Below, one piece after another: positions 9,185 to 32,000 of a stretch of 32,000 nucleotides of DNA; position 1 is the stretch's first letter, and each line of letters begins with the position of its first letter. Made by a program: the position numbers and the translations under genes. The notes beneath the pieces were generated by a model. That model did not search any database. It was not told where the DNA came from and was given only the letters and a program-made list of their open reading frames with translations. Origin of the DNA: Candidatus Saccharimonadota bacterium (GTDB lineage: Bacteria > Patescibacteriota > Saccharimonadia > Saccharimonadales > UBA4665); contig CP065016.1 in NCBI GenBank assembly GCA_016700375.1, positions 420,001 through 452,000 of the forward strand, written 5' to 3'.

Positions 9185-9222
9185 TAAGGAGTTGTCGAGT
9201 TGGTTGTCAAAACGAACAACTA

Positions 9223-10292
9223 CACGAGTTTCGCACTCCCCAATTCTTTGCTAGCCTAGAAGCATGACGTCAGTCATGCTTTTTCGTAAACAAGGAAAAT
9301 AAACATGTCTCGTTCAAAATGTTCTCGTGAGCTGTACTGCTCATTCCTGGAGGTCACCTCCTCACGGTATTCTGCGCTCAGCTTGAGCGAAGTAGCCCCA
9401 GACAATGCCATGCTCTCTCACGACAGCGTCTCCCGTTGGCTAGCATCTGAAAAGATACAGCCCAAAGACCTGTGGCAAGCTGCCGCTAAGGAAGTTCGCG
9501 CCACTCCTGGCATTTTGGTCTTCGATGATGTCGTCATCGACAAAAGCCGAAGCGGCAAGATGGAGCTTGTGAACTGGCAGTATGCGGGAAGTAAGCATGA
9601 CATCACCAGAGGGATTGGCGTTGTAAATGCGTTGTGGCAAGTAGATACAGAACACTACATTCCTATGGACTACCGCATCTGGAACCCGCCAGAAGACGGC
9701 AAGACTAAGAATGATCACTTCCAGGATATGCTGAGTAGCACAAGACAGAGAGGGCTACGCCCGGAGATGGTTGTTGCGGATAGCTGGTACGGCTCTCTAA
9801 AAAACCTTAAGGCAGTTCGCTCTCATGGCTGGGACTGGGTCATGGGGCTGAGGAGCAACCGGTTAGTCGGTAAGCCACATATCCAGCTCAGAGAGTTAGA
9901 TATACCAGATACAGGCTTGGTGACATATCTGAAAGGCTATGGGTGGATCAGAGTCTTCCGGTTTGAGGCCAGTAACGGCCGCACGGATTATGTTGGTACA
10001 AGTCGTACTGACCTCACCCGCGAACAAGTCAAGAAATACTTCGAGCGCCGTTGGAGTGTCGAGGTACTGCATCGAGAGCTCAAACAAACCTGTGGCTTAT
10101 CCCGCTGTCAGGCCAATCTTGGCCGAGCCCAAAGAAACCACATTGGGTTAGCTTTGCTTACCTGGGTACGAAAACATAAGAGAAGGCTAATTGACCAAAC
10201 GACGCTATACCAACAAGATTGGGAGGTCATAAAACCAGGCATCCAGCTTGCGCTGGCTGCCCGGTTGAATGGGTGAAAGTGCGAAACTCGTG
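9223..10292 (+). mobile_element. complete IS element (IS701-like / IS4 superfamily), ~1070 bp
   Basis: 15-bp perfect terminal inverted repeats: CACGAGTTTCGCACT at 9223-9237 and AGTGCGAAACTCGTG at 10278-10292. A 5-bp direct target duplication AACTA flanks them (9218-9222 and 10293-10297). The element holds a single DDE transposase ORF. Confidence 0.88.
9305..10276 (+). CDS. DDE transposase (IS701-like)
   Basis: 323 aa with a DDE-type layout: LVFDDVVIDKSRSGKME...QYAGSKH, VVADSWYGS, and a C-terminal Y-x2-R-x3-E-x6-K-type motif (YFERRWSVEVLHRELKQ). Confidence 0.85.
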   Translation: MSRSKCSRELYCSFLEVTSSRYSALSLSEVAPDNAMLSHDSVSRWLASEKIQPKDLWQAAAKEVRATPGILVFDDVVIDKSRSGKMELVNWQYAGSKHDITRGIGVVNALWQVDTEHYIPMDYRIWNPPEDGKTKNDHFQDMLSSTRQRGLRPEMVVADSWYGSLKNLKAVRSHGWDWVMGLRSNRLVGKPHIQLRELDIPDTGLVTYLKGYGWIRVFRFEASNGRTDYVGTSRTDLTREQVKKYFERRWSVEVLHRELKQTCGLSRCQANLGRAQRNHIGLALLTWVRKHKRRLIDQTTLYQQDWEVIKPGIQLALAARLNG

Positions 10293-10758
10293 AACTATAA
10301 CACCGAGAATCGGAGCTCTGGCCTGGTTTTGGTTCCAAGGCCTTTTGGCAGCAAAAGGCCTTGGTCGGGGGCGCGGACGAGACCGCGCATGAATTAGAAG
10401 ATTCTTAACGATACTCATGATAACAGGAACGGAGAGTGAACAACCCCTCTAAACGTGTTGGCAAAAATACACTATGCGCGGGCTAAGCACGAGCGTATAG
10501 TGTGTAGTCCAGCCATGTGAGGACTTTTGGCTTCCAGTCATCTTTACCTTACAGACTTATTTACAGGCAATCACACTTCGGTCACTGTGCGCCTTCATTA
10601 CAATCAGGTTCCTTATTGGCACTCTTCGCGTCAAACGGTCGCAAGCGTGACAGGCACCTCCTCATAAAAACCCGTTGCCGAACAGAGATAATTCAGTTTC
10701 GGCTTTTTGTCGTCTCAAAGCTTTGATGACAAAAACCTAACGTAATGGAGGACTCACT

Positions 10759-11010
10759 ATGACCCAAACTATCAATCAAGAAGTTACTGTTAATGCCATC
10801 TATTTCTCTGGCGGCGATATGAAAACCTTTCCGCGCGAGATTGAATATGACGGCCGGGCGGTGGCATTTGCGAGCGGTCTGCGCTACCTCGTCCGCCGCG
10901 GCGCCGAAGCCCTGCAGCTGTTCGACATGAACGGGGAAGACGGCCTCATTTATCGCCTGAGTCGCCACGGCGACAATTGGACACTACTCGGGCTGAAAGG
11001 AGCATTCTAA
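10759..11010 (+). CDS. small hypothetical protein, first gene of the umuD/umuC-like cassette
   Basis: 83-aa ORF with a strong SD (GGAGG) 7 nt upstream of the ATG. Its stop overlaps a downstream ATG (TAATGA). Confidence 0.6.
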   Translation: MTQTINQEVTVNAIYFSGGDMKTFPREIEYDGRAVAFASGLRYLVRRGAEALQLFDMNGEDGLIYRLSRHGDNWTLLGLKGAF

Positions 11011-11013
11011 TGA

Positions 11014-11147
11014 GCCGGAAAGTATCGAGGCGACAGCCGAGCTTTAGGGGGAGGGGCGAGCAGACGAATTTAGTTCGGCTGCGAAGTAGAGGGGCAAGCC
11101 CCTCCTTAAAATGGACTCTGCTAGGGCTGAAAGGAGCATTCTAATGA
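11014..11147. repeat. family B element (inverted relative to the 31711 array) plus a 36-nt duplication of the gene junction
   Basis: 11030-11110 aligns to the reverse complement of the 113-bp unit at 31711 (CGAGGCGAyAGCCGAGCTTTAGGG ... CCTCCTT). The junction TGGAC.CT.CT.GGGCTGAAAGGAGCATTCTAATGA occurs twice, at 10978-11013 and 11112-11147. Confidence 0.7.
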
Positions 11148-11425
11148 AGCTATCACCCCAGCAATACCTCACAGAAGACCTTGCTCAAATACAACGCTAC
11201 TTCCCAGGAGCAAAACCAGTTGCACTCCGCACTCCCTTCGACCTGACACCGCCGCCAAAGCGAAAATTCCAAATCCCAAATGGCAAATTCCAAACAAATG
11301 CCAACGACCAAAACACAAAAGAGTCGCCCAAAAGCTCCTCGCGGAGTGATCCTGCTGCCATTTTTTTGTCTTATCTCATGACTCTTGACTCTGTGAGCCG
11401 GAGGCGAACCCGATGGATGGTGTAA
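11144..11425 (+). CDS. hypothetical protein whose C-terminal two-thirds is read through a family A repeat
   Basis: ATG at 11144 is preceded by AAAGGAG. 94 aa (MKLSPQQYLTEDLAQIQRYF...). Codons ~40-85 are the tandem heptamers AAATTCC/AAATCCC/AAATGGC plus the repeat core and right arm. It overlaps the next gene by 13 nt. Confidence 0.45.
   Translation: MKLSPQQYLTEDLAQIQRYFPGAKPVALRTPFDLTPPPKRKFQIPNGKFQTNANDQNTKESPKSSSRSDPAAIFLSYLMTLDSVSRRRTRWMV
11264..11397 (+). repeat. family A heptamer-armed element, copy inside ORF 11144-11425
   Basis: Tandem heptamers AAATTCC AAATCCC AAATGGC AAATTCC AAACAAA lie at 11264-11298. The core CAAAAGAGTCGCC resembles CAAAAAGTCGCC of the umuC copies. The right arm is TGTCTTATCTCATGACTCTTGACTCTG (11367-11393). 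Confidence 0.55.
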
Positions 11426-11766
11426 ATCTCCTTAGTAAAGCATCACTACAAACCGGCACCGCCGTAGCGACGCACAAAGGCTTTCCAAACCCAGCCGCCG
11501 AGCGCGGCCGCTCACTGCTTAGCCTGGACCGCTTACTGATACGTTCACCAAGCAGCACCTATTTTTTCCGTATACGCGGACACAACTGGCACCAGCTCGG
11601 CATATTTGACGGCGATATTGCCATTGTCGACCGAGCCCGCACACCAATCCCAGGTAAAATCGTCATCGCTGCAACAGATACGGGCGAGCTCGTTTTGAGC
11701 AAATGGGGTGAAATCCGTCTCGAAAATCTCTGGGGCGTCGTAACCGCCATAATTCATGAATTTTAA
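11413..11766 (+). CDS. umuD: UmuD-like S24-fold protein (LexA/UmuD C-terminal domain) lacking the Ser nucleophile
   Basis: 117 aa. GFPNPAAE...LDRLLIRSPSSTYFFRIRGHNW...GIFDGDIAIVDR...GKIVIAA...GELVLSKW aligns with UmuD GFPSPAADY...ATYFVKASGDSM...DGDLLIVD...GDIVIAA...GEFTVKKL. The GDSM motif is GHNW here. Confidence 0.8.
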   Translation: MDGVNLLSKASLQTGTAVATHKGFPNPAAERGRSLLSLDRLLIRSPSSTYFFRIRGHNWHQLGIFDGDIAIVDRARTPIPGKIVIAATDTGELVLSKWGEIRLENLWGVVTAIIHEF

Positions 11767-11771
11767 TGGAA

Positions 11772-11806
11772 AGAGGCAAGGAGTAAGAGATAAGAAGTAA
11801 GAGAAC
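11772..11806 (+). repeat. family A left-arm-type heptamer run (GGCAAGG AGTAAGA GATAAGA AGTAAGA GAACGGC)
   Basis: A purine-rich heptamer periodicity sits immediately after the umuD-like stop. It has the same TAAGAGA-type unit as the arms in umuC, but no matching right arm follows nearby. Confidence 0.45.
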
Positions 11807-11811
11807 GGCCA

Positions 11812-11999
11812 AAGGCCGCTTAACCAACAATCGCGCCAGCGATACAACTAAAGCCGGTCTTCGCGGAAGCTCACGGCGAAATCGTTGTAATACCAACTAA
11901 TCTTACAAAACCGAGGTCTGTCTGAGGAGCCTTAGGGCTGCCGTTGGCAGTCCTAAGGCGACGAGTTCCGCAGGTGATTGTTGGGCATTACAACGATTT
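11812..11999. repeat. family C intergenic structured repeat, copy 2
   Basis: 11812-11877 is ~80% identical to 9036-9100. A 20-bp long-range stem pairs GAAATCGTTGTAATACCAAC (11878-11897) with GTTGGGCATTACAACGATTTC (11979-11999). It encloses the hairpin CCTTAGGGCTGCC-gtt-GGCAGTCCTAAGG (11930-11958). Confidence 0.7.
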
Positions 12000-12105
12000 C
12001 CCGAGAGCTGAAGCGCTAGGCCGAGACTTTTTGCCTACTTTTTCTTCGGCAGAAAAAGTAGGTCGCCTGCAGGCGCGAGAGCCTGCATTTAGAAAGTTAC
12101 CAACC

Positions 12106-13626
12106 ATGTATGCACTTATAGATTCCAACAGTTTTTTCGTCAGCTGCGAACGCCTCTTCCGCCCAGACCTCGCAGACAAACCCGTCGTGGTACTTAGTAG
12201 TAACGACGGCTGCGCCATATCTCGCAGCAGCGAGGCCAAAGCTCTCGGTGTAAAAATGGGCGAACCCATCTTCAAGCTCCGCCAGAGATTTAGGGTTATC
12301 GACGGAAACCTAAAACGAGAGTTAAGAGATAAGAGGTATGAGATAAGATGGGAAGTTATGCCGCAAGGCGGCCCTCAAAAAGTCGCCTCCGGCGACACAT
12401 TTTCCACTCTTAACTCTTATCTCTTACATCATAATTCTGCTGAAAACGACCTCGTCGTTTTCTCTGCCAACTTCGAACTCTACGGCGACATATCTGAGCG
12501 CATTAGCACGCTCCTCACCAGCATTACACCGCATATAGAGCTCTACAGTATAGACGAAGCATTCCTTGACCTCAGCAAGCTCGACATAACCGACTATGAG
12601 ACCTGGGGCAAAGCAGTGCGTGCAAGTATTCTCAAAAACATTGGTATACCAGTGAGCGTTGGCATTGCCCCTACGAAAACCCTCTGCAAACTCGCCAACC
12701 ATTGGGCTAAAACTCACGAAAATACCAAAGGTGTTTTCGTGGTAGATATAAGAGATAAGAATCAAGAGTTAAGAAGAGAAGTTGTGCCGCAAAATGGCTC
12801 TCAAAAAGTCGCCTCCGGCGACACCGTTTCTAATCTTAACTCTTATCTCTTACTCCTTACCTCTACCTCCGTTGCCGACATCTGGGGCGTCGGCTGGCGG
12901 CTCGCACCCAAACTCAAAGCCGAGGGTATTTTCACCGCGCTTGGCCTCGCCCGCATGCGCCCCCAGCGCGCCCAACAGCTTATGGGTATTCATGGCCGCC
13001 ATATGGTGTATGAGCTAAACGGCACACGCTGCTTGCCGCTGCAAGCGCGCACCAAGCCGCAGCAGATGATTGCACGAGGGCGGCAATTTGGCAAAGATAC
13101 CAACGATTTCACCGTCGTGGAAGCTGCTGTGACGGCCCTGGCAAACCGTGCCACGCGTGAACTCCGCCGCGAAGGACAGCTCGCCACGCATGCCGCCGTG
13201 GTGCTGCGCACCAACCGACTCAAGCCAGGCTACACGACCACATTCGATAAAACCCGTTTTTACACCCCCACAGCCGACACAGGAGAGATTTGCAGCGCGC
13301 TTATCCGCACCCTAAGCCACAATTTTCAGCGTGGGCTCATGTACCACAAGGCAGATGTTATCCTGTACGACCTTACACCTGCCGCAAGCATCCAAACAGA
13401 TGTATTTGGCACGGTAGACCTCGCCCGCCACACCCGCTCACAAGCCCGTATGCAGGCCACCGATGCGCTCAATGCGAAACATGGCCCACACACCATTCGC
13501 TCGGCTGCCGAACTGCTCAGCAATGCCTGGCGCCCTCGCAGCAACATGCTCAGCCCCCGCTACACGAGTAGCTGGGATGAGCTACCTGCAGTAAAACTAC
13601 GCAGCAACCCTAGCACCAAGCCCTAA
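12106..13626 (+). CDS. umuC: Y-family translesion DNA polymerase (UmuC/DinB-like) carrying two in-frame repeat insertions
   Basis: MYALIDSNSFFVSCERLFRPDL...VVVLSSNDGC...SIDEAFLDL...IAPTKTLCKLANH...DIWGVG...MLSPRYTSSWDELP is collinear with E. coli UmuC. The start is set at ATG 12106. The ORF-track start at 11944 reads through the family C repeat. Confidence 0.9.
   Translation: MYALIDSNSFFVSCERLFRPDLADKPVVVLSSNDGCAISRSSEAKALGVKMGEPIFKLRQRFRVIDGNLKRELRDKRYEIRWEVMPQGGPQKVASGDTFSTLNSYLLHHNSAENDLVVFSANFELYGDISERISTLLTSITPHIELYSIDEAFLDLSKLDITDYETWGKAVRASILKNIGIPVSVGIAPTKTLCKLANHWAKTHENTKGVFVVDIRDKNQELRREVVPQNGSQKVASGDTVSNLNSYLLLLTSTSVADIWGVGWRLAPKLKAEGIFTALGLARMRPQRAQQLMGIHGRHMVYELNGTRCLPLQARTKPQQMIARGRQFGKDTNDFTVVEAAVTALANRATRELRREGQLATHAAVVLRTNRLKPGYTTTFDKTRFYTPTADTGEICSALIRTLSHNFQRGLMYHKADVILYDLTPAASIQTDVFGTVDLARHTRSQARMQATDALNAKHGPHTIRSAAELLSNAWRPRSNMLSPRYTSSWDELPAVKLRSNPSTKP
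12317..12437 (+). repeat. family A heptamer-armed hairpin element, in-frame copy 1 in umuC
   Basis: The left arm is TTAAGAG ATAAGAG GTATGAG ATAAGAT. The core holds the mini-hairpins GCCGCaagGCGGC and GTCGCCtccGGCGAC. The right arm is CTCTTAA CTCTTAT CTCTTAC. A perfect 13-bp inverted repeat pairs 12323-12335 with 12414-12426. Confidence 0.85.
12744..12870 (+). repeat. family A heptamer-armed hairpin element, in-frame copy 2 in umuC
   Basis: The core and right arm are ~85% identical to copy 1 (GAAGTTGTGCCGCAAAATGGCTCTCAAAAAGTCGCCTCCGGCGACACCGTTTCTAATCTTAACTCTTATCTCTTAC). The left arm is ATAAGAG ATAAGAA TCAAGAG TTAAGAA. Confidence 0.85.
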
Positions 13627-13964: not shown

Positions 13965-14735
13965 ATGCTAAGATGTATCTTACAAATGGCAGACATGTTT
14001 CGGTTTGAAGAAATTGGTTTAGAAACTCGTGACAAACGGGTGTATGAGGCGCTGGTAGCAAGCCCCCAGAGTAGTTTGCGGAAAATTGCGGCCGACACGG
14101 GCATAAACCGCGGCAGCGTCTACGAAAGCATGAAAAAACTGGCAGAGCAAGGGCTGGTTGGCTCTATAGAGGTTGGCAAACAGCGCCGCTACACCGCGAG
14201 CAATCCGGAAGTTATCATAGAACTTCTAAAAGAGCGCCAGCAGCAGGCAGCGGATGCTCAAAACGCGGCAGAAACATACATCTTGAACCTCCCCAAGCCG
14301 ATGCCAGATGAAGAAACGACTTCATTTGCCACCTTTTACGAAGACCATGAGGGCGTTGCCGCTATCTTGCGTGATGTGCTTGCTACCTGCCGTGAGCAAG
14401 AAACCCCAGCCTACCGCGTCATATCCACCAAGCGCGTCCGTCAGTATCTGTACCATAACTTTCCAAACTTTACGCAGCGCCGGATAGCCGATGGTATAAG
14501 CGTCCGTGTGATTGGCGTAGGGAAAGGCGGCGCCTCTGACGAACTCAGCGAGCGAAGAGAGTTTCCGGCTGCCCGCGGCGAAGCACCCAACTGCTACACG
14601 CTTATGTACGGCAACAAAACCGCCTTGATTACACTTGGCGACACAAACATCCTCTCGGCCATCGTCATCGACAACCCCGGCGTTACCCATATGCAAAAAG
14701 AACTCTTCGACCACCTATGGAGTACGCTCAATTAG
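13965..14735 (+). CDS. TrmB-family HTH transcriptional regulator
   Basis: N-terminal winged HTH typical of TrmB (FEEIGLETRDKRVYEALVASPQSSLRKIAADTGINRGSVYESMKKLAEQGLV) followed by a C-terminal effector-type domain. The true start may be the internal MADMFRF or MFRF. Confidence 0.8.
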   Translation: MLRCILQMADMFRFEEIGLETRDKRVYEALVASPQSSLRKIAADTGINRGSVYESMKKLAEQGLVGSIEVGKQRRYTASNPEVIIELLKERQQQAADAQNAAETYILNLPKPMPDEETTSFATFYEDHEGVAAILRDVLATCREQETPAYRVISTKRVRQYLYHNFPNFTQRRIADGISVRVIGVGKGGASDELSERREFPAARGEAPNCYTLMYGNKTALITLGDTNILSAIVIDNPGVTHMQKELFDHLWSTLN

Positions 14736-14742
14736 CCATTAT

Positions 14743-14844
14743 CGTGTAACGTGTCACATTGGATTGCCCAGTAACATGTAACGCCTGAATCTCATCGTTA
14801 CACGGAAATTGATAATCCCACGTGACATGTTACAGGTTACACGG
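14743..14844. promoter_or_regulatory. cluster of TGTAAC/GTTACA half-sites (candidate operator array) between the TrmB-type regulator and the methyltransferase gene
   Basis: CGTGTAAC at 14743-14750, CATGTAAC at 14775-14782, GTTACACGG at 14797-14805, CATGTTACA at 14826-14834, GTTACACGG at 14836-14844. CACGTG is at 14819-14824. Confidence 0.45.
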
Positions 14845-14856
14845 TAATCTAATTCG

Positions 14857-19278: not shown

Positions 19279-19376
19279 TTGCCTCAAGCTAACCATACGA
19301 CAATTTCGTGCCAAATGGCGGCTACCTAATAGGGGCAGTCATTGCTTCCTTCGGGATTGGCAGCTACCATAGACAT

Positions 19377-20159
19377 ATGCGCCTCAACAAATATATTGCT
19401 TCCGCCTCGCTACTAAGCCGACGAGCGGCCGACCAAGCCATTGCCGACAGACGCGTTACCCTAAATGGCCAGATAACCGAAGCCGGCTCCCAGGTGAAAC
19501 CAACAGATACGGTTTGCCTCGACGGGGTGAAATTGACGCCTTGCATGCAGCACACAACCATTATGCTCAATAAGCCAGTCGGATATGTTTGTTCGCGGAG
19601 CGGCCAGGGAAGCAAAACTATTTTTGAACTCCTGCCCGAAGCATACCAGCATTTGCAGCCAGTCGGACGGCTCGACAAAGATTCGTCTGGGCTATTGCTA
19701 CTAACCGACGACGGCGACCTTGCAAACCAGCTCACCCACCCTAGCCGCGGCAAGGTCAAAGTATATGAAGTCACTCTCAACAAGCCCCTCCAGCCACTCC
19801 ACCAGCAAATGATATCTGACTACGGCATCACCCTCAAAGACGGTTTGAGCCGATTCACGGTCACGAAACTAGAGACAAGAGACATGAGATATGAGTCAAG
19901 AAAGGAAAACATATCACGCAGCAATTATTCAAAAGTCGGTTCCAGCGATGTATCATCCACTCATGACTCAGTACTCATGACTCATGACTCTCATACGTAC
20001 GAAGTACGCATGCAAGAAGGCCGCAACCGCCAAATCCGCCGCACGTTCGCCGCCCTCGGCTACACTGTTACCACCCTCCACCGAACCCACTTTGGCTCAT
20101 ATAATCTTGGCAATGCACTGCCAAAAGATATCGTCATCATACACTCGACGGACATGTGA
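19377..20159 (+). CDS. RsuA/RluB-family rRNA pseudouridine synthase (S4 domain plus catalytic domain) with an in-frame repeat insertion
   Basis: MRLNKYIASASLLSRRAADQAI (S4), the catalytic GRLDKDSSGLLLLTDDG motif, and EGRNRQIRRTFAALG. The start is set at ATG 19377; the ORF-track start 19308 adds 23 non-conserved residues. Confidence 0.88.
   Translation: MRLNKYIASASLLSRRAADQAIADRRVTLNGQITEAGSQVKPTDTVCLDGVKLTPCMQHTTIMLNKPVGYVCSRSGQGSKTIFELLPEAYQHLQPVGRLDKDSSGLLLLTDDGDLANQLTHPSRGKVKVYEVTLNKPLQPLHQQMISDYGITLKDGLSRFTVTKLETRDMRYESRKENISRSNYSKVGSSDVSSTHDSVLMTHDSHTYEVRMQEGRNRQIRRTFAALGYTVTTLHRTHFGSYNLGNALPKDIVIIHSTDM
19868..19996 (+). repeat. family A heptamer-armed hairpin element, in-frame copy in the pseudouridine synthase gene
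   Basis: The left arm is GAGACAA GAGACAT GAGATAT GAGTCAA. The core TTCAAAAGTCGGTTCCAGCGATG is homologous to CTCAAAAAGTCGCCTCCGGCGAC. The right arm is ACTCATG ACTCAGT ACTCATG ACTCATG ACTCTCA. Confidence 0.8.
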
Positions 20160-20508: not shown

Positions 20509-21702
20509 CTAGGGATTCTTGGTAAAACTCGTCAGACTTATTGGCGTAGTGGCAAGAGCATTATCGTCGCCAACACCAGCCATACCACCACCCATCGGAC
20601 TTGTCGGTAGTTTGATTACCTGACCACTACGAATAATGTCTGGGTTATCGATGTTATTTGCCTTTGCAATCTCCCTATAATCAAGACCACGGCGTTGTGC
20701 TATTTCACTTAATGTATCACCCTTCACTACAACGTAATCCTGTACTCCGTCTGAGCCAGCCGTGCCTGGAGCGGCGCCACCGAGAGAGTTCGGCAATTTG
20801 ATAGCTTGGTCTGGAAAGATTAAATCTGGATTCTGAATATTATTCAATCTTACTAGCTCCTCTACGGTCGTACCATGCCGTAGCGCAATCTTGCTTAGAG
20901 TGTCACCAGGTCTGACAGTTTCCACACGACCAACATCACCTGGAGTGGGCGAGTCGTCAGAACTGGGCTTGGAGCCACCACCGGGGTTAGAGGTTATAGC
21001 ATCACCTAATTCAACATGCGAGTCAATGCCATGCTGTGCGGCTGCCGCTTGACTTGCAAGCTTACGATCTTCGCGGCTGTTGTTAAGGTCGTTCTGGGCA
21101 ATGCTTGCTTGGTTCGCAAGCTTACGATCTTCAATCGAATTGTATTGAGAATTGGTTTGAGCCTGCTGGGCAGCCTGTGCGGCTGCCGCTTGACTTGCAA
21201 GCTTACGATCTTCGCGGCTGTTGTTAAGGTCGTTCTGAGCAATGCTTGCTTGGTTCGCAAGCTTACGATCTTCAATCGAATTGTATTGAGTGTTAAGCTG
21301 CGCGGCAGCAGCGGCTTCCTCAGCTTGCTTAGCTGCAAAAGCTCTCTCTTGTTGACGCTGTTTAGCGGCTGCGGCCTGTGCAGCTGCGGCCTGTGCAGCA
21401 GCGGCTTCCTCAGCTTGCTTAGCTGCAAAAGCTCTCTCTTGTTGACGCTGTCTCGCCACTGCAGCCTGTGCAGCCTGTGCAGCTGCGGCCTCTGCGGCTG
21501 CGGCCTGTGCGGCAGCGGCTTGCTTAGCTGCAAAAGCTCTCTCTTGTTGACGCTGTTTAGCGGCTGCGGCCTGTGCAGCTGCGGCCTGTGCAGCAGCGGC
21601 TTGGTTTTTCAATCGATTCTCTTCAACATCATTAGAGTAGCTATATGAGCTGCTACTACCGCCATCATCCGCTGCTCGCACCATACCTCTCGCCTCCTTC
21701 AT
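20509..21702 (-). CDS. LysM-domain protein with an Ala/Gln-rich repetitive N-terminal region
   Basis: Two C-terminal LysM motifs (GDTLSKIALRHGTTVEELVRLNNIQNPDLIFPDQAIKLP and GDTLSEIAQRRGLDYREIAKANNIDNPDIIRSGQVIKLP). The probable true start is M7 at 21684, preceded by AAGGAGG. Confidence 0.85.
   Translation of the reverse strand: MKEARGMVRAADDGGSSSSYSYSNDVEENRLKNQAAAAQAAAAQAAAAKQRQQERAFAAKQAAAAQAAAAEAAAAQAAQAAVARQRQQERAFAAKQAEEAAAAQAAAAQAAAAKQRQQERAFAAKQAEEAAAAAQLNTQYNSIEDRKLANQASIAQNDLNNSREDRKLASQAAAAQAAQQAQTNSQYNSIEDRKLANQASIAQNDLNNSREDRKLASQAAAAQHGIDSHVELGDAITSNPGGGSKPSSDDSPTPGDVGRVETVRPGDTLSKIALRHGTTVEELVRLNNIQNPDLIFPDQAIKLPNSLGGAAPGTAGSDGVQDYVVVKGDTLSEIAQRRGLDYREIAKANNIDNPDIIRSGQVIKLPTSPMGGGMAGVGDDNALATTPISLTSFTKNP
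21041..21600. repeat. intragenic tandem repeats in the LysM gene (141-bp unit x2; ~90-105-bp AAAQAAAAKQRQQERAFAAKQ unit x3)
   Basis: GCTGCCGCTTGACTTGCAAGCTTACGATCTTCGCGG... recurs at 21041 and 21182. GCTTAGCTGCAAAAGCTCTCTCTTGTTGACGCTG recurs three times between 21325 and 21555. Confidence 0.8.
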
Positions 21703-21798: not shown

Positions 21799-22706
21799 AA
21801 CCTGAATCACGAAACTCCCTAAAGTAAATCGCGCCTCTGTTACTCTTGTAGTGGTAAAACAAACAGGAGAAAACAAATGCGCGAATTACAAAAACAGCAT
21901 ATCGTAGACGTGTACGTTTGGGTAGATGACACACTCCAACAAACCGCAGTCGGGAAAACTGGCAGGCCACCGGTACTGCGCGACAGTGAACTCATTACCA
22001 TCCTCATCTGGGATGGTTTGACTGAAAGCCACCGACCACTCAAAGACCTATACAAATGGATTGAACGAGACTACCCAGACTACTTTCCGAAGCTTCCAAA
22101 GTACCAGAACTTTGTTGCGCAAGCGCACCGCAACCTAGAACAACTCGTCTACCTGCTACAACTGACATTACAGATCTCGTCGGAGGTGCGTTTCGCGGAT
22201 TCTACTATGCTGCCCGTCTGTAAGCTCATTCGGGCCGAGCGACACAAGGTAGCCAAAGCTGTTGCTGCTTTCGGTAAGAACTGGCAGGGCTACCATTATG
22301 GTTTTAAGTTACACGCGAGTGTTGATCATCTCAACCGGCTCTGTGCGGTGGTGTTTACGCCAGCAGACCAGCACGACAATCAGGCCGAGGAACAACTTGC
22401 AAATGAACACACCAGGATACTCGTTGGCGACAGCCACTACGGTGGTAGCGTACAGCGTAGGCGGCTCTGGGAACAGTACAAAACTATTGTTGTTGCACCG
22501 CCCCATTACAAGCAACGAAAACAAGTCATGGCCAGCTGGCAACATCTGTTATTGACGCTCAGGCCAAAGATTGAAGCTGTCTTTGACTACCTCAAAGAGC
22601 ACAAGCACCTCGTCACCTCATTCCCGAGAAGTGTGCAGGGGTACTTTGTCCATTATCTACGAGTCTTACTTGGCTACCAGATGAGGGTAGTTTCGTGATT
22701 CAGGTT
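21799..22706 (+). mobile_element. IS982-family insertion sequence (~908 bp)
   Basis: 18-bp perfect terminal inverted repeats: AACCTGAATCACGAAACT at 21799-21816 and AGTTTCGTGATTCAGGTT at 22689-22706. They enclose a single transposase ORF. Confidence 0.85.
21877..22698 (+). CDS. IS982-family DDE transposase
   Basis: 273 aa. VWVDDTL, SDSELITILI, ADSTMLPVCKLIRAERHK, YGFKLHA, TPADQHDN, LVGDSHYGG and KIEAVFDYLK parallel the conserved IS982 transposase blocks. Confidence 0.85.
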   Translation: MRELQKQHIVDVYVWVDDTLQQTAVGKTGRPPVLRDSELITILIWDGLTESHRPLKDLYKWIERDYPDYFPKLPKYQNFVAQAHRNLEQLVYLLQLTLQISSEVRFADSTMLPVCKLIRAERHKVAKAVAAFGKNWQGYHYGFKLHASVDHLNRLCAVVFTPADQHDNQAEEQLANEHTRILVGDSHYGGSVQRRRLWEQYKTIVVAPPHYKQRKQVMASWQHLLLTLRPKIEAVFDYLKEHKHLVTSFPRSVQGYFVHYLRVLLGYQMRVVS

Positions 22707-22728: not shown

Positions 22729-23767
22729 TACTAAGCCCCAATTGTCCAGACACTTAGACATGAGTTACTGTTCCTTTCCATACCGCTTCATAGTGCTCCA
22801 TTGGCGGCAGGTTATTGCAGCTGCTATGCCGTCTCACGCGATTGTATTCGTTCTGCCATAGTTTCATTGCTTCGTTGAACGCGACGACATCAAGCTCGGT
22901 CGTTTTGGTGACGTGGTAAAACTCTTCTTCGTCTGTCCGATGGCTCCGCTCGACAAAACCATTATGTTGGGGTGTACCCGGTCGGGATAGCTTGTGCTCG
23001 ATGCCCCGGTCGAGCAGGTACTGCGTGAACGGGTGGATACGTCTGAGCTCATGGTCACGCTTTTTGTTACCGCCAGTAGACAAATTGGTGAACGTGGAGT
23101 GGTTATCTGTCTGGACACATTCCACCGTAATACCAATCGATTCGTAGAACGCCAGGGCTTCACGCACAAAGGCGATTGAGTTGCTATTCGACAAGCCATC
23201 CTTGACCGCCAGGTACCGGATCTTGCTGACAATGTCTATCGCTGTAAACTGCTGTCTCCGACTCCGTCGTTTATCTTCGTCCGGACGAACCGGTGCAGCC
23301 TTAGTGTCAATCTGCACTCGGTAGCCTGGATAGGGCGCGTAGAACGGTCTCGTTGGCTTTTTCTTTGGATGTTTCTGGTGCTTTACGAGGTCGGCTCGTT
23401 CAATAATGCCGCGGACAGCTTTCTCGCCAATGGATATTCCAGAGTCACTCATCTCATCGACGATTCGCTTCGGGCCATAGGATAGTCCCAGCCTGATTTG
23501 TAGCACCAAATCCTCAATGTCTTCATTCGTCTGCCAGGATACCCTGCCTTTTGGTCCAGGCTTCTGCGGGAACAGTTCGATCCGCCAAGCATAGATAGTA
23601 TCCCGATGGATCCCAAACATTCGGGCAGCGATTGCCGCGCCTTTCGCATCGGCTTCAGTTAACACTCGTTTACGATAGGCAATAACTTGATGTCGGGTTA
23701 GGTTCTTCTTCATACACATATGCCCCAATTCTACACACCGAGGTGTCGGAGGGATTGGGGCTTAGTA
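22729..23767 (-). mobile_element. IS481-like (rve/integrase-core) insertion sequence (~1039 bp)
   Basis: 14-bp inverted repeats: TACTAAGCCCCAAT at 22729-22742 and ATTGGGGCTTAGTA at 23754-23767. A 16-bp direct repeat ATAAACGGGGCTGTTT flanks the element (22711-22726 and 23769-23784). Confidence 0.8.
22754..23728 (-). CDS. IS481-like transposase (N-terminal HTH plus DDE integrase core)
   Basis: 324 aa. HTH (AIAARMFGIHRDTIYAWR), then a DDE core (VQIDTK..., QTDNHSTF, RPGTPQHNGFVERSHRTDEEEF). Confidence 0.85.
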   Translation of the reverse strand: MGHMCMKKNLTRHQVIAYRKRVLTEADAKGAAIAARMFGIHRDTIYAWRIELFPQKPGPKGRVSWQTNEDIEDLVLQIRLGLSYGPKRIVDEMSDSGISIGEKAVRGIIERADLVKHQKHPKKKPTRPFYAPYPGYRVQIDTKAAPVRPDEDKRRSRRQQFTAIDIVSKIRYLAVKDGLSNSNSIAFVREALAFYESIGITVECVQTDNHSTFTNLSTGGNKKRDHELRRIHPFTQYLLDRGIEHKLSRPGTPQHNGFVERSHRTDEEEFYHVTKTTELDVVAFNEAMKLWQNEYNRVRRHSSCNNLPPMEHYEAVWKGTVTHV

Positions 23768-26154: not shown

Positions 26155-26595
26155 ATGAGCTTCACCACCGAAGAAAAACAGGAGCTTCTCGCCCTCATTA
26201 TAGAAGGTGTCGAAACTGTCACTGGGCCTCGTTTTGAAGCATTGGAAGCCGATGTCGCAGAGCTTAAGTCCGATGTCGCAGAGCTTAAGTCCGATGTCGC
26301 AGAGCTTAAGTCCGATGTCGCAGAGCTTAAGTCCGATATGCGGAGCGTCAAATCAGAACTGACCGATATCAACCATCGACTTACCAGTCTAGAGTTATCA
26401 TTCCAAAACTTCGACGAGCGGTTGCAGGCTCTCGAAAATGACGTCAAAGAAATATACAAAATATTGGCCGCCAAACCAATTTCGGCCTTCGGCAGCCGCG
26501 CATATGCCAAACTTTCCAATAGCCAAAAACTCCTCGAGCTTCACAAAGAAGTCCGTCACCTCGCTTCCGTAGAAGGCGTTACGCTGCCGTCCTAA
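26155..26595 (+). CDS. hypothetical coiled-coil protein with a (DVAELKS)x4 heptad array
   Basis: 146 aa with heptad periodicity throughout (EALEA DVAELKS x4 DMRSVKS ELTDINH...). No other motif. Confidence 0.65.
   Translation: MSFTTEEKQELLALIIEGVETVTGPRFEALEADVAELKSDVAELKSDVAELKSDVAELKSDMRSVKSELTDINHRLTSLELSFQNFDERLQALENDVKEIYKILAAKPISAFGSRAYAKLSNSQKLLELHKEVRHLASVEGVTLPS
26251..26334 (+). repeat. perfect 21-bp tandem repeat x4 (GATGTCGCAGAGCTTAAGTCC), in-frame
   Basis: Four identical head-to-tail units at 26251, 26272, 26293 and 26314. A diverged fifth unit follows. Confidence 0.95.
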
Positions 26596-27337: not shown

Positions 27338-28753
27338 ATGAGTACAAAACTACCAATCGTTGCCATAGTGGGGCGGGCAAATGTGGGCAAAAGCTCGCTG
27401 TTTAACGCCATCCTCGACCGCCGCGAAGCCATTGTGGCGCACGAGGCTGGCACCACGCGCGACAGCATTACCGCCAAGGCTGAGTGGCAGGGGCAAAACT
27501 TCTGGCTCGTTGACACCGCGGGCATGAAAGACGCAGCCGACGACTTTGAGTTCACCATCCAGGAACAAATAATCCAGGCGGCCGATAGCGCCGACATAAT
27601 ATGGGTGGTGGTAGAGGCAAACATACCCATTAGCGAAGAAGACCGCCGAGTCGCCAAACTCGCGCTCAAGAGTAAAAAGCCCGTTTTTCTCATAATAAAC
27701 AAGGTTGACCGCGCCCGCGGGCACGACCTTGAGGGCTTTGAGCGCCTGGGCATTAAGCCAATTTTCCCAACCAGCGCCACCCAAAAACGCGGCATAGATG
27801 ACCTGCTCGACACCCTCGTCAGCCATATTCCAAAGGCTACGCTGGCCGATAACGACGACTGTCTCCGTATAGCACTGCTCGGTAGACCAAATGTGGGGAA
27901 GTCGCAATTGTTTAACACCCTCGCTAAAAAACAGCAGGCCATTGTTGCCGACCGGGCGGGCACCACGCGGGATATCAACCGCGCCACCGTGCGCTACAGC
28001 GGGCAGGAGATTGAACTCATGGACACGGCGGGTATTCGCCGCCCGGGCAAAATCGGTGTCGGTATAGAGCATTTTAGCGTCGTCCGCAGCCTCAGTGCCA
28101 TTGAACAAGCCGACGTATGCTTGCTACTTATAGACGTAAACGAAATTGGCACCGCCCTCGACCAAAAAATTGCCGGCATGATAAAAGAAGCCGGCAAAGG
28201 GCTTATAATCGTCGTGTCAAAATGGGATAGCGTGGAGGGGAAAGATGCCTTCACGCGCGACGCCCTTGCCCCGCAAATTACTCACACGTTTGACTTCGTT
28301 GCGTGGGCACCGCTCATTTTTACCAGCAGCGTTACCGGCCAGAATGTCACCAAAATATTCGACCTCGCGCTCGACATTGCCAACGCCCGAAAAACCCGTA
28401 TTTCTACCCGCGTGCTCAATAGCTGGCTTGGCGGCGTTATTGCCAAACACCCTCCCGCCGGTCTCAAGAACCGCGCCCCCAAACTGAACTACATGGTACA
28501 GGAAGATGACAACCCCATCCCGGCCTTCAAAATCTTTGGGGCACACACCAAGTTCCTCCACTGGAGCTACAAGCGTTTCATGGAACGCGAACTTCGCGCC
28601 CAGTTCCATTTTGAGGGCACCGCGGTGCAACTATGGTTTATAGAAAAAGACGGCCGCCACAAACACGGCAACAGCCCCACCAAGCCAGAACGCTCAGAGA
28701 CACAACGGAAGATTGTGAAGAATAAAACACGCAGCAAACGAAAGGAATCGTGA
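27338..28753 (+). CDS. der: ribosome-associated GTPase Der (EngA), tandem GTPase domains plus KH-like domain
   Basis: Two G domains (GRANVGKSSLFN...DTAG...NKVD and GRPNVGKSQLFN...DTAG...SKWD) and a C-terminal KH-like region with a basic tail. Confidence 0.97.
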   Translation: MSTKLPIVAIVGRANVGKSSLFNAILDRREAIVAHEAGTTRDSITAKAEWQGQNFWLVDTAGMKDAADDFEFTIQEQIIQAADSADIIWVVVEANIPISEEDRRVAKLALKSKKPVFLIINKVDRARGHDLEGFERLGIKPIFPTSATQKRGIDDLLDTLVSHIPKATLADNDDCLRIALLGRPNVGKSQLFNTLAKKQQAIVADRAGTTRDINRATVRYSGQEIELMDTAGIRRPGKIGVGIEHFSVVRSLSAIEQADVCLLLIDVNEIGTALDQKIAGMIKEAGKGLIIVVSKWDSVEGKDAFTRDALAPQITHTFDFVAWAPLIFTSSVTGQNVTKIFDLALDIANARKTRISTRVLNSWLGGVIAKHPPAGLKNRAPKLNYMVQEDDNPIPAFKIFGAHTKFLHWSYKRFMERELRAQFHFEGTAVQLWFIEKDGRHKHGNSPTKPERSETQRKIVKNKTRSKRKES

Positions 28754-28831
28754 ATCATGAATCATGAATCATGTAGAAAAATAGTGGGGTATTTTCCATT
28801 CTTAATTCATAATTCATCTTTCATCATTCAG
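28745..28831 (+). repeat. family A heptamer-armed element, short intergenic copy overlapping the der stop codon
   Basis: The left arm is TGAATCA x3 (perfect). The junction ATTTTCCATTCTTAATTC matches ATTTTCCACTCTTAACTC of the umuC copy. The right arm is ATTCTTA ATTCATA ATTCATC TTTCATC. The first TGA (28751-28753) is the der stop. Confidence 0.7.
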
Positions 28832-28848
28832 CGACCGGGGGTCGCATA

Positions 28849-31712: not shown

Positions 31713-32000
31713 GGAGGACCTTGTCCTCCTCGCTGGTTCGGAATGAATCCGAACTCAGCTCTCCTCCTGCCCTAAAGCTCGGCTATCGCCTCGTTCGTGT
31801 GGGGTTATCAGGAAGCTTGTCTTAAGGAGGACCTTGTCCTCCTCGCTGGTTCGGAATGAATCCGAACTCAGCTCTCCTCCTGCCCTAAAGCTCGGCTATC
31901 GCCTCGTTCGTGTGGGGTTATCAGGAAGCTTGTCTTAAGGAGGACCTTGTCCTCCTCGCTGGTTCGGAATGAATCCGAACTCAGCTCTCCTCCTGCCCTA
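31709..32000 (+). repeat. family B: head-to-tail tandem array of a 113-bp unit (2.6 copies visible, runs off the window)
   Basis: AAGGAGGACCTTGTCCTCCTCGCTGGTTCGGAATGAATCCGAAC... starts at 31711, 31824 and 31937 (period 113) and the copies are apparently identical. The dprA stop TAA (31710-31712) overlaps the first unit. Confidence 0.95.

What the first reader, a model, noticed from the sequence alone, without database searches (positions are those of the whole stretch)
12317..12870. Two copies of a heptamer-armed hairpin element sit in-frame inside the umuC-like polymerase gene, with stop-avoiding heptamer variants
**Extra DNA relative to UmuC.** Collinearity with E. coli UmuC breaks at two places. 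About 40 extra residues lie between KMGEPIF and FSANFELYGD. About 25-30 extra residues lie between LANHWAK and DIWGVG.

**Both insertions are one element.** The extra DNA (12317-12437 and 12744-12870) is two copies of the same element, with ~85% identical core and right arm.
- The left arm is purine-rich tandem heptamers (TTAAGAG ATAAGAG ...).
- The core has two mini-hairpins (GCCGCaagGCGGC and GTCGCCtccGGCGAC).
- The right arm is the complementary heptamers (CTCTTAA CTCTTAT CTCTTAC).
- A perfect 13-bp inverted repeat pairs 12323-12335 with 12414-12426.

**Stop avoidance.** A 7-nt period shifts the frame by one each unit, so the TAA inside TAAGAG would fall in the umuC frame every third unit. 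Exactly those units are altered: TAT at 12337-12339 and CAA at 12763-12765. The out-of-frame registers keep TAA (12323, 12330, 12344; 12749, 12756, 12770).

This pattern indicates selection to keep the host ORF open through a selfish or structured element. It is reminiscent of Rickettsia palindromic elements and of the cyanobacterial heptamer-repeat/small-dispersed-repeat association. I do not recognise this particular architecture.
Basis: partly seen in the sequence, partly recalled or inferred. Interest (0 to 1): 0.88.

Follow-up and report, generated by a model that had tools for sequence, protein, structure and literature searches.

The report
In-frame heptamer-armed hairpin repeats in umuC
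A small hairpin-forming repeat of about 121 bases sits inside several genes of an ultra-small Saccharibacteria-type bacterium and is read through as extra protein loops, much like the "selfish" palindromic elements long known in Rickettsia but built differently.

Summary
umuC (12106-13626) carries two copies of a 121-nt palindromic element (12318-12438 and 12744-12864, 80-84% identical). Each has heptamer-repeat arms around two GC mini-hairpins.

I found more of the same family:
- a third full copy in frame in a pseudouridine-synthase gene (19871-19991);
- a hybrid half copy in the small ORF upstream of umuD;
- further copies in related Saccharimonadales assemblies, in umuC, the synthase, the GTPase der and upstream of clpC.

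All eight full copies have the same length, orientation and reading frame. Only that frame is open.

Heptamer units whose TAA/TGA would fall in frame are altered in both arms (0/16). Out-of-frame units keep a stop triplet in 30/48 cases.

The hairpin shows compensatory changes. Orthologues with empty sites exist. AlphaFold gives low confidence exactly over both inserts.

Best reading: a low-copy, Rickettsia-palindromic-element-like repeat that is translated as a disordered surface loop. I found no target-site duplication and no matching transposase, so how it moves is unknown.

One result stays unexplained: synonymous sites change far more slowly inside the element than in the host genes.

Verdict: a new variant of a known kind, of moderate interest.

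The parts
12106..13626 (+). umuC-like Y-family polymerase gene, the host of copies A and B
   Evidence: The Pfam IMS domain is split into two stretches, followed by IMS_C and DUF4113. Solved Pol IV aligns in three pieces around the two inserts. The catalytic D6, D150 and E151 are invariant across orthologues.
12318..12438 (+). Element copy A at umuC site 1. Left heptamer arm 12318-12352, mini-hairpin 1 at 12360-12372, A-run 12377-12381, mini-hairpin 2 at 12382-12396, right heptamer arm 12407-12438. Altered in-frame units: TAT 12337-12339 and TAT 12418-12420.
   Evidence: AlphaFold pLDDT is below 50 over residues 68-113.
12744..12864 (+). Element copy B at umuC site 2. Mini-hairpin 2 at 12808-12822, right arm 12833-12867. 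Altered in-frame units: CAA 12763-12765 and TAT 12844-12846. The end of the right arm encodes the predicted helix at residues 246-253.
19871..19991 (+). Element copy C, in frame inside an RsuA/RluB/RluF-type pseudouridine synthase gene (ORF 19308-20159). Arms are of the TGAGTCA / TGACTCA type. Altered in-frame units: TAT 19890-19892 and GTA 19971-19973.
   Evidence: The gene has 38 residues more than solved RluF at this point.
11264..11393 (+). Hybrid or degenerate copy inside the small ORF upstream of umuD (11145-11425). It has an AAATTCC-type left arm, a diverged core and a right arm TCTTATCTCATGACTCTTGACTCT read as SYLMTLDS, the same frame as the other copies.
   Evidence: nhmmer matches the right half, E = 7e-4. 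The ORF is 93 aa here and 60-62 aa in L023 and L025. Homologues P0122 and P0123 carry a left arm and core at the same place.
11770..11804 (+). Left-arm-like heptamer array (AAGAGNN) directly after the umuD stop codon, with no partner arm.
   Evidence: It is only 51% identical to L022, inside flanks that are 94-98% identical.
27482..27499 (+). Empty site in the window's own der (EngA) gene. A related genome (L002) carries a full element at this point.
   Evidence: Window AKA-EWQGQN-FWLVD against L002 AKA-SIFIDA[element]RAKNRYD-FWLVD.
28738..28833 (+). A heptamer-armed hairpin of the same general class but with other heptamers (GAATCAT / ATTCATA) and a short loop. It lies at the der stop codon.
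   Evidence: The orthologous position has the same arms in L003 and different heptamers (GGTAGCA type) in L002. As DNA it folds only weakly (z = -1.3).

Best explanation
**What it is.** The element is a fixed-length, roughly 121-bp non-coding palindromic repeat. It belongs to a narrow lineage of Saccharimonadales (candidate phyla radiation). Two arms of tandem heptamers (nnGAGnn on the left, its complement on the right) flank a core with two GC mini-hairpins and an A-run.

**Where it sits.** It has come to occupy at least six sites. Five are inside genes: two loops of umuC, one loop of a pseudouridine synthase, one loop of der, and the small ORF upstream of umuD.

**How it is expressed (inferred).** It stays in the mRNA and is translated with the host protein. 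The product is a roughly 40-residue loop with a charged first half and a Leu/Ser/Thr-rich second half, placed at the protein surface.

**Why only some copies survive (inferred).** Selection on the host genes keeps only copies in tolerant loops, in one orientation and one frame. It has also removed the TAA/TGA of every third heptamer unit.

**Why one orientation (inferred).** In the opposite orientation the core reads as a GC hairpin followed by T5-6. That could terminate transcription inside the gene.

**How it evolves.**
- The arms appear to change by slippage and by exchange between copies.
- The hairpin is kept through compensatory changes.
- Internal deletions leave half elements.

**How it spreads.** This is not shown. 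There is no target-site duplication and no transposase with matching ends. My best guess is a hairpin-dependent process, or recombination through the shared heptamer arms.
For: **Dispersed family**
- There are 3 full copies in 32 kb. Copies also occur in the umuC, rsuA-like and der genes of other assemblies, and upstream of clpC.
- The 8 full copies align without a single indel.

**Frame and orientation**
- All copies share one orientation and one frame.
- That frame has 0 stops in all 8 copies. Each of the other five frames has 1-6 stops.

**Stop avoidance**
- In-frame units carry 0/16 stop triplets. Out-of-frame units carry 30/48.

**Not a domain**
- Empty sites exist in L024, L023 and the window's own der.
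- Solved Pol IV and RluF align around the inserts.
- pLDDT is below 50 exactly over residues 68-113 and 218-244.
- dN/dS in the element is 0.5-0.8, against 0.11-0.21 in the hosts.

**Hairpin maintained**
- 90.6% of cells are paired.
- 12 pairs changed on both sides, against 6.4 +/- 1.6 in shuffles (0 of 500 reach it) and 0-3 in the slid controls.

**Turnover**
- Window against L006: host flanks are 92-100% identical, but the elements only 38-77%.
- L004 against L006: host identity is about 75%, but the element 87-88%.
- The series empty / arms only / right arm only / full is seen at umuC site 2.

**Real in nature**
- The element appears in independent ENA, JGI, NCBI and Logan assemblies.

**Precedent**
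- Palindromic elements fused in frame to genes, and tolerated there, are known in Rickettsia (PMC2229807, PMC10969869).
Against: - Copy number looks low. A strict 21-base pattern found only 1-2 copies in each of four species-representative genomes. Only one family member turned up in the metagenome collection.
- Most sites cluster in one roughly 17-kb neighbourhood of the window.
- There is no target-site duplication.
- The three insertion sequences in the window have unrelated ends.
- At umuC site 2, der and the small ORF the element replaces 6-20 native residues. This is not a clean insertion.
- Between positional orthologues of the same element type, the proportion of synonymous differences (pS) is 0-0.14 in the element. 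In the host genes it is 0.24-0.62 (Fisher p = 2e-6 to 0.03). A purely neutral passenger should not behave like this.
- Transcription and translation of the element are inferred, not observed.
Confidence: 0.68

Rival explanations
1. The hairpin is kept because it does something for the host at the nucleic-acid level. It would be a structured RNA or DNA signal embedded in coding sequence. It might stop antisense transcription (GC hairpin plus T-run on the opposite strand), set mRNA stability, or pause translation. The peptide would be a by-product.
For: - Synonymous sites in the element are 3-5 times more conserved than in the host genes, while non-synonymous sites are equal.
- Compensatory changes keep the stem.
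- A terminator-like GTCGCC-NNN-GGCGAC plus T5-6 lies on the antisense strand. It is seen in 7 of 8 copies (alignment).
- The insertions have been kept at the same sites across hosts with synonymous divergence above 1.
Against: - Many orthologues manage without it, or with an unrelated insert at the same place.
- G-U pairs (10) and A-C pairs (11) are balanced, and neither strand folds consistently better. So there is no sign of selection on one RNA strand.
- The host genes are functionally unrelated.
- Slow change could instead reflect exchange between copies or a younger age.
Confidence: 0.17
2. Nothing moves as a unit. Heptamer arrays and their inverted partners would arise locally by polymerase slippage and fold-back copying in this lineage. 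The similar cores would then be spread among pre-existing heptamer hairpins by gene conversion through the arms.
For: - Period-7 arrays are strongly enriched in this lineage.
- An arms-only hairpin sits at umuC site 2 in L023.
- Hybrid elements carry arms of different heptamer types (window 11264-11393; L022 site 2).
- Orthologous hairpins at the der 3' end have different heptamers.
- A and B in one genome are closer to each other (80%) than B is to its positional orthologue (71%).
- Heptamer repeats are known to be over-represented in bacteria, and slippage has been proposed as the cause (PMC4692102).
Against: - Eight copies at four unrelated sites share identical length and spacing from arm through core to arm. 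This is easier to explain if the whole unit is copied.
- Arms-only and half forms are equally well explained as internal deletions.
Confidence: 0.1
3. The element is not translated. It would be skipped by the ribosome, as with the mobile bypass elements of yeast mitochondria or phage T4 gene 60, or removed from the RNA.
For: - It forms a stable hairpin inside an ORF.
- No expression data are available.
Against: - Every copy is stop-free and preserves the frame.
- The units that would give in-frame stops are specifically altered. None of this would be needed if the element were skipped.
- The end of B's right arm is predicted to form a helix that takes the place of a native one.
Confidence: 0.03
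4. The segments are genuine, functionally selected protein insertions or domains of these enzymes, or they are assembly artefacts.
For: - The reading frame is conserved.
- AlphaFold predicts short helices at the edges of the inserts.
Against: - Empty orthologues exist.
- The same 40-residue peptide occurs in unrelated enzymes.
- dN/dS is near 0.5-1.
- pLDDT is below 50 over the inserts.
- No Pfam family matches the inserts; the IMS domain is simply split.
- The element is present in many independent assemblies.
Confidence: 0.02

Closest known systems
Rickettsia palindromic elements (RPE; Ogata et al. 2000, as summarised in PMC2229807 and PMC10969869)
   Same: - Both are palindromic repeats of 100-150 bp that predict a long stem-loop.
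- Both are found fused in frame inside conserved, unrelated enzyme genes of a small-genome bacterium.
- Both encode a conserved peptide and appear tolerated rather than required.
- Neither has a clear target-site duplication or a known transposase.
   Different: - The phylum is unrelated and no sequence relationship was shown.
- The arms here are tandem heptamers, whose stop triplets must be purged every third unit.
- Copy number is much lower: a few per genome, against 44 in R. conorii.
- Several sites show replacement of native residues.
- Different hairpin elements turn over at the same site.
Bacterial miniature inverted-repeat elements with open reading frames (ERIC, the 107-bp Correia element, YPAL, Coxiella QMITE; PMC2229807, PMC5896051)
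   Same: - Both are small, non-autonomous and hairpin-forming.
- Both sometimes lie inside genes as in-frame fusions.
- In both, variants with an open frame are the ones found inside genes.
   Different: - Those elements usually have defined terminal inverted repeats, TA ends and target-site duplications, and are mostly intergenic.
- Here the ends are fuzzy heptamer arrays, no duplication is seen, and most known copies are intragenic.
Cyanobacterial tandem heptamer repeats and small dispersed repeats (Elhai et al. 2008; from memory, paper not held)
   Same: - Both involve a lineage-specific abundance of tandem heptamers.
- Both associate those heptamers with very small dispersed hairpin-like repeats of unknown mobility mechanism.
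   Different: - The heptamer sequences and the organism differ.
- I could not check whether those elements have paired inverted heptamer arms or sit in frame in genes.
Terminator-like repeats such as the pneumococcal SPRITE element (named in PMC10969869)
   Same: - The core contains a GC hairpin followed by a T-run on one strand.
- A sister hairpin sits exactly at the der stop codon.
   Different: - Here the terminator-like strand is antisense to every host gene.
- The element lies inside ORFs.

Membership tests
Rickettsia palindromic elements (RPE) | Sequence belongs to one of the RPE families of the genus Rickettsia | not tested
   No RPE consensus is available in the tools. The host here is Saccharimonadales, so membership is not claimed. 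Only the mode of existence is compared.
Rickettsia palindromic elements (RPE) | Palindromic element of about 100-150 bp that predicts a long stem-loop | tested here: met
   The element is 121 nt. RNA folding z = -4.1 to -8.4 and DNA z = -3.8 to -5.8. 90.6% of cells are paired across 8 copies.
Rickettsia palindromic elements (RPE) | Inserted in frame in unrelated conserved protein genes and encoding a shared peptide | tested here: met
   Hosts are umuC (two sites), the pseudouridine synthase, der and the small ORF. All copies use the same frame and encode related peptides.
[quoted passage not shown] | Terminal inverted repeats | tested here: met
   The arms are complementary over 20-50 nt, and the ends read AGAG...CTCT.
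[quoted passage not shown] | Target-site duplication flanking the element | tested here: not met
   No consistent direct repeat appears at the boundaries of 8 copies. A TGTTAG repeat is seen only in L004.
[quoted passage not shown] | A parent insertion sequence or transposase with matching ends | tested here: inconclusive
   The three transposase genes in the window (9305-10276, 21877-22698, 22754-23728) have unrelated terminal repeats. The rest of the genome could not be searched.
[quoted passage not shown] | Multiple dispersed copies in one genome | tested here: met
   There are 3 full copies and at least 1 partial copy in 32 kb. Only 1-2 strict-pattern matches occur per related species genome, so the family is low-copy.
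REP / REPIN elements | Short (20-40 bp) GC-rich palindromes, extragenic, associated with a RAYT transposase | tested here: not met
   The element is 121 nt and mostly intragenic. No Y1/RAYT-type gene is seen among the window ORFs.
Known RNA families (Rfam 15) | A match at or above a family's gathering score | tested here: not met
   The only match is a chance-level hit to a plant microRNA precursor (20.5 bits against a gathering score of 64, E = 0.055). The whole window yields only one tRNA.
Cyanobacterial small dispersed repeats in heptamer arrays | Small repeat nested in tandem heptamer repeats | tested here: inconclusive
   The architecture (a core between heptamer arrays, and an arms-only form in L023) is compatible. 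The defining description could not be read.

The most novel reading that the evidence does not exclude
The hairpins would not be mere passengers. They would be maintained at fixed positions inside coding sequences of CPR bacteria by selection on the nucleic-acid structure itself, or by a site-specific copy-and-replace process.
- Between positional orthologues, synonymous sites change 3-5 times more slowly inside the element than in the surrounding gene.
- Stems are kept by compensatory changes.
- Unrelated heptamer-armed hairpins replace one another at the same two umuC loops.

This would point to a previously undescribed class of structure-selected or homing elements embedded in ORFs.
Probability: 0.2. 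Interest if true: 0.75.

Novelty: new variant of a known kind. Interest (0 to 1): 0.55.

Why it matters
- It extends the phenomenon of "selfish DNA inside protein-coding genes" from Rickettsia and a few proteobacteria to the candidate phyla radiation. Those genomes are tiny and are assumed to be streamlined.
- The 7-nt repeat cycles through all three frames. This gives an unusually clean, countable signature of selection keeping a host ORF open.
- Two loops of the mutagenic polymerase UmuC act as recurrent landing sites for different hairpin elements. Direct repeats of the element in one gene may also cause deletions.
- For annotation, such inserts inflate and split domain matches in CPR proteins.
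- If the nucleotide-level conservation reflects function, coding sequences in these bacteria carry an extra layer of structural information.

Tried and rejected
- **Peptide word-index search.** A search with an alignment of 12 insert peptides found nothing. The profile search of 1.84 billion representatives gave only 6 hits. A broad catalogue of host proteins could not be built.
- **Metagenome pattern scan.** It returned 13 loci, of which only L009 is a family member. The rest are unrelated sequences, some of them heptamer-armed hairpins of other organisms. The viral scan gave 2 unrelated hits.
- **Target-site duplication.** None was found.
- **Parent insertion sequence.** The three in the window have unrelated ends.
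- **Rfam.** No family matched.
- **Link to GANTC methylation or restriction sites in the TGAGTCA-type arms.** GANTC is, if anything, slightly depleted in the window (79 against 98.7 +/- 10), and copies A and B lack it. I dropped the idea.
- **Neisseria-dRS3-like hairpin (ATTCCC-N8-GGGAAT).** It is present in L005 only and absent from the window.
- **Recent replacement at site 2 (window against L022).** This is weakened because L022 becomes more divergent downstream of copy A. The different insert may have arrived with an imported allele.
- **Structure search of the AlphaFold model.** The call failed. A sequence comparison with solved structures was used instead.
- **Literature.** Searches found no report of such elements in Saccharibacteria or Patescibacteria. 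The Elhai 2008 paper is not held.
Full report
**Setting**

The window has about 51% G+C. Its proteins find their closest relatives in Candidatus Saccharibacteria / Saccharimonadales assemblies.

The ORF at 12106-13626 is a UmuC-type Y-family polymerase.
- Pfam finds IMS (split into two stretches), IMS_C and DUF4113.
- It follows an S24-peptidase gene (umuD-like, 11413-11766) and a small ORF (11145-11425).

**Checking the observation**

- Copy A (12318-12438) and copy B (12744-12864) are 80-84% identical with no indels. They start 426 nt, or 142 codons, apart.
- Each has a purine-rich left arm of TAAGAGA-type heptamers.
- Each has a core with two mini-hairpins. These are GCCGCaagGCGGC at 12360-12372, and GTCGCCtccGGCGAC at 12382-12396 (A) and 12808-12822 (B).
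- Each has a right arm of the complementary CTCTTAA-type heptamers.
- The 13-nt perfect inverted repeat 12323-12335 / 12414-12426 is there.

These features exceed chance.
- Both copies fold far better than shuffled sequence, as RNA (z = -5.6 to -8.4 on either strand) and as DNA (z = -4.3 and -5.8).
- The core motif AAAAGTCGNNTCCNGCGA occurs three times in the window, against 0.08 expected.
- Period-7 arrays are a feature of this DNA: 13 raw arrays, against 0-2 for periods 5, 6 and 8-11.

The third core match belongs to a full copy C (19871-19991).
- It is 62% identical to A.
- It lies in frame inside an RsuA/RluB/RluF-type pseudouridine synthase gene.
- That protein has 38 residues more than solved RluF at this point.

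A diverged hybrid copy lies in the small ORF upstream of umuD (11264-11393).
- Its left arm is of the AAATTCC type.
- Its right arm is read as SYLMTLDS, the same frame as the other copies.
- The ORF is 93 aa here but 60-62 aa in genomes without the element.
- Homologues P0122 and P0123 carry a left arm and core at the same place.

A lone left-arm-like array follows the umuD stop codon (11770-11804).

A scan of one genome per species returned 6 matches, all in Saccharimonadales assemblies.
- Two are in umuC site 2 (L004, L006).
- Two are in the synthase (L001, L003).
- One is in the beta2-beta3 loop of the GTPase der (L002).
- One is a right half directly upstream of clpC (L005).

The window's own der gene is empty at that site, 27482-27499. 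The metagenome scan added only one member, L009, in the synthase.

The family is therefore real and dispersed, but low-copy and confined to a narrow clade.

**Anatomy and frame**

Eight full copies from four unrelated sites align without a single indel.
- All lie in the sense orientation of their host gene.
- All use the same frame, with GTC of the second mini-hairpin read as a Val codon.
- That frame has no stop in any copy. Each of the other five frames has 1-6 stops.

The peptides are related. One example is RDKRYEIR..QKVASGDT..STLNSYLL. The first half is charged because it comes from the purine arm. The second half is rich in Leu, Ser and Thr because it comes from the pyrimidine arm.

**Stop avoidance**

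A 7-nt repeat shifts frame by one at each unit. The triplet at the unit boundary therefore falls in frame once per arm.

| Arm | In-frame unit (8 copies) | Stops in frame | Stops out of frame |
|---|---|---|---|
| Left | TAT, CAA, TAT, CAA, CAA, CAT, CAT, CAT | 0/8 | 10/24 |
| Right | TAT, TAT, GTA, TAC, TAC, GTA, TAT, TAT | 0/8 | 20/24 |

- The window positions are 12418-12420, 12844-12846 and 19971-19973.
- If the in-frame units kept stops at the out-of-frame rate of 83%, all eight being free of them would have probability about 6e-7.
- Allowing for only about four independent lineages, the probability is about 8e-4.

The altered right-arm unit is the one bulged out of the consensus stem.

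**Not a domain**

UmuC orthologues range from 421 to 555 aa, and all the length variation lies at these two places.
- L024 (P0015, 72% identical) is empty at both sites. L023 is empty at site 1.
- Against L024, the window has 49 extra residues at site 1 and a net 27 at site 2.
- Solved Pol IV aligns in three pieces: query 5-60, 124-203 and 254-369.
- AlphaFold gives pLDDT below 50 exactly over residues 68-113 and 218-244, between confident flanks.
- dN/dS inside the element is 0.5-0.8, against 0.11-0.21 in the host genes.

At site 2 the series runs from empty (L024) to arms only (L023), right arm only (L025) and full (window, L004, L006). At site 1, L004 keeps only the right half. This fits internal deletions of a hairpin, or a stepwise build-up.

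Three sites do not look like clean insertions.
- At umuC site 2 about 13 native residues, forming a helix before the helix-hairpin-helix motif, are missing. The end of the right arm (..SYLLLLTS) takes their place and is predicted helical at residues 246-253.
- At der, EWQGQN is replaced.
- In the small ORF about 20 residues are replaced.

**The hairpin is maintained**

On the 8-copy alignment, 90.6% of cells pair.
- 12 of 36 pairs show changes on both sides.
- Column shuffles give 6.4 +/- 1.6, and 0 of 500 reach the observed value.
- Sliding the partners gives 0-3.

G-U (10) and A-C (11) cells are balanced, and neither strand folds consistently better. So I see no evidence that one particular RNA strand is the selected object. 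The constraint could be on DNA or on either transcript.

**Evolutionary behaviour**

Element divergence is decoupled from host divergence.
- Window against L006: umuC flanks are 92-100% identical. The site-2 element is 67-77% identical. Site 1 is 38-54% identical, because L006 has GGGCAAA-type heptamers and another core there.
- L004 against L006: the host is about 75% identical but the element 87-88%.
- A and B within the window (80%) are closer to each other than B is to its positional orthologues (68-71%).

Where positional orthologues carry the same element type, synonymous sites differ much less in the element than in the host.
- The proportion of synonymous differences is 0-0.14 in the element, against 0.24-0.62 in the host (Fisher p = 2e-6 to 0.03).
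- The non-synonymous proportions are equal.
- In the synthase the left-arm start is variable, while the core and right arm are 95-100% identical.

Two readings of this fit:
- a nucleotide-level constraint, which the stem covariation supports;
- exchange among copies, which would make them younger than the host divergence.

I cannot separate the two.

Against the close relative L022:
- copy A is 95.9% identical and the small-ORF copy 97.7%;
- site 2 holds a different hairpin with GGAATTT-type arms, only 39.8% identical;
- the array after umuD is 51% identical inside flanks that are 94-98% identical.

L022 is more divergent downstream of copy A, so its site-2 allele may have been imported by recombination.

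More distant orthologues carry further families at the same two loops.
- L027 site 2 has the same TAAGAGA arms with a larger core.
- L026 site 2 and L027 site 1 carry a "TRAQRGHER..ERS..RGASPSSEK" family.

**Mobility**

I found no target-site duplication. The three insertion sequences in the window have unrelated terminal repeats. How the unit reached unrelated sites is therefore unknown.

The identical length and spacing of arm, core and arm at four unrelated sites argue that the whole unit is copied. Hybrid arms and arms-only forms leave room for transfer of the core by recombination through shared heptamer arms.

Heptamer repeats are known to be over-represented in bacteria, and polymerase slippage has been proposed as the cause (PMC4692102).

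**Orientation**

On the antisense strand the second mini-hairpin is followed by T5-6. This looks like a terminator and is seen in 7 of 8 copies (alignment). In the opposite orientation this could stop transcription of the host gene. That would explain why all copies, including the one upstream of clpC, face the same way. This is an inference.

**Comparison with what is known**

The closest analogue is the Rickettsia palindromic element.
- It is a 105-146-bp palindrome fused in frame into many conserved genes.
- It is translated and tolerated, with no clear duplication or transposase (PMC2229807, PMC10969869).

The present family works like it but is not a member.
- The phylum is different and no sequence relationship was shown.
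- The arms are tandem heptamers, which force stop purging.
- Copy number is low.
- Several sites show replacement of native residues.

It meets some MITE criteria (inverted ends, small size, several copies). It fails the one on target duplication.

The resemblance to cyanobacterial heptamer arrays with small dispersed repeats rests on my memory of Elhai et al. 2008, which I could not read. Rfam has nothing like it. Literature searches found no report for Saccharibacteria.

**Verdict**

- It is a new variant of a known kind.
- The unexplained slow change of synonymous sites in the element, and the turnover at fixed loops, are the parts worth following up.

Noticed in passing
window 9220-10295: An insertion sequence carrying a DDE transposase gene (9305-10276) is bounded by inverted ends ...ACGAGTTTCGCACT / AGTGCGAAACTCGT. 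It is absent from the otherwise 94-98% identical relative L022, so the insertion is recent.
   Followed up: partly
window 31709-32000 and 11014-11108: A 113-nt unit is repeated 2.6 times at 100% identity and runs off the window end, downstream of dprA. Each unit contains short hairpins. Part of it is 82% complementary to 11026-11064. That stretch lies between two copies of a 39-nt direct repeat (10975-11013 and 11109-11147), which duplicates the end of the 83-aa ORF together with the ribosome-binding site. This looks like a second repeat family.
   Followed up: no
protein P0090 (UmuC homologue, 360 aa, on a 1260-bp Logan contig): This UmuC runs from the left flank of site 1 through a single element into the right flank of site 2. 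It therefore lacks the whole catalytic segment between them. Either a real deletion occurred between the two direct element copies, or the assembler collapsed the repeat.
   Followed up: partly
window 28738-28833; L003 3826-3918; L002 3514-3598: A heptamer-armed hairpin sits at the der stop codon. The orthologous position has the same GAATCAT arms in L003 but different heptamers (GGTAGCA type) in L002. The hairpin is kept while the heptamer sequence changes.
   Followed up: partly
L007, L013, L015, L017 (metagenome contigs from other organisms): These are short-loop hairpins whose arms are tandem heptamers of the form GAGTnnn / nnnACTC. L007 is flanked by an A-run and a T-run, like a bidirectional terminator. 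Heptamer-armed hairpins may be a wider class.
   Followed up: no
L005 27-46; L006 umuC site 1; proteins P0007 and P0039: A hairpin ATTCCCGCGAAGGCGGGAAT, of the form ATTCCC-N8-GGGAAT and recalling Neisseria dRS3 repeats (from memory), is fused to a right half of the element in L005. Related peptides (HSRAGGNPV-like) appear in frame in other UmuC orthologues.
   Followed up: partly
L026 and L027 (UmuC of more distant Saccharimonadales): A different hairpin-rich insert family (peptide TRAQRGHER...ERS...RGASPSSEK) occupies the same two UmuC loops. L027 site 2 has TAAGAGA-type arms around a larger core.
   Followed up: partly
window 11767-12105: The umuD-umuC spacer is 340 bp and packed with hairpins. 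Examples are arms 11878-11902 / 11976-12000 and GCCTACTTTTTCttcgGCAGAAAAAGTAGG. In L025 the two genes are only 6 bp apart.
   Followed up: no
window 14731-14848: Nested inverted repeats built from GTTACA/TGTAAC-like units lie between the TrmB-type regulator gene and the TylF-type methyltransferase gene. They may be operator sites.
   Followed up: no
window 26249-26337 and 21034-21602: Perfect 21-nt tandem repeats (4.2 copies) lie in a coiled-coil ORF. Large tandem repeats of 141, 105 and 90 nt lie in the LysM-domain gene on the minus strand.
   Followed up: no
protein P0125 (341 aa, unknown source): This predicted protein consists largely of (QESRVKS)n. That is a long pure array of the CAAGAGT heptamer read in all three phases.
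   Followed up: no
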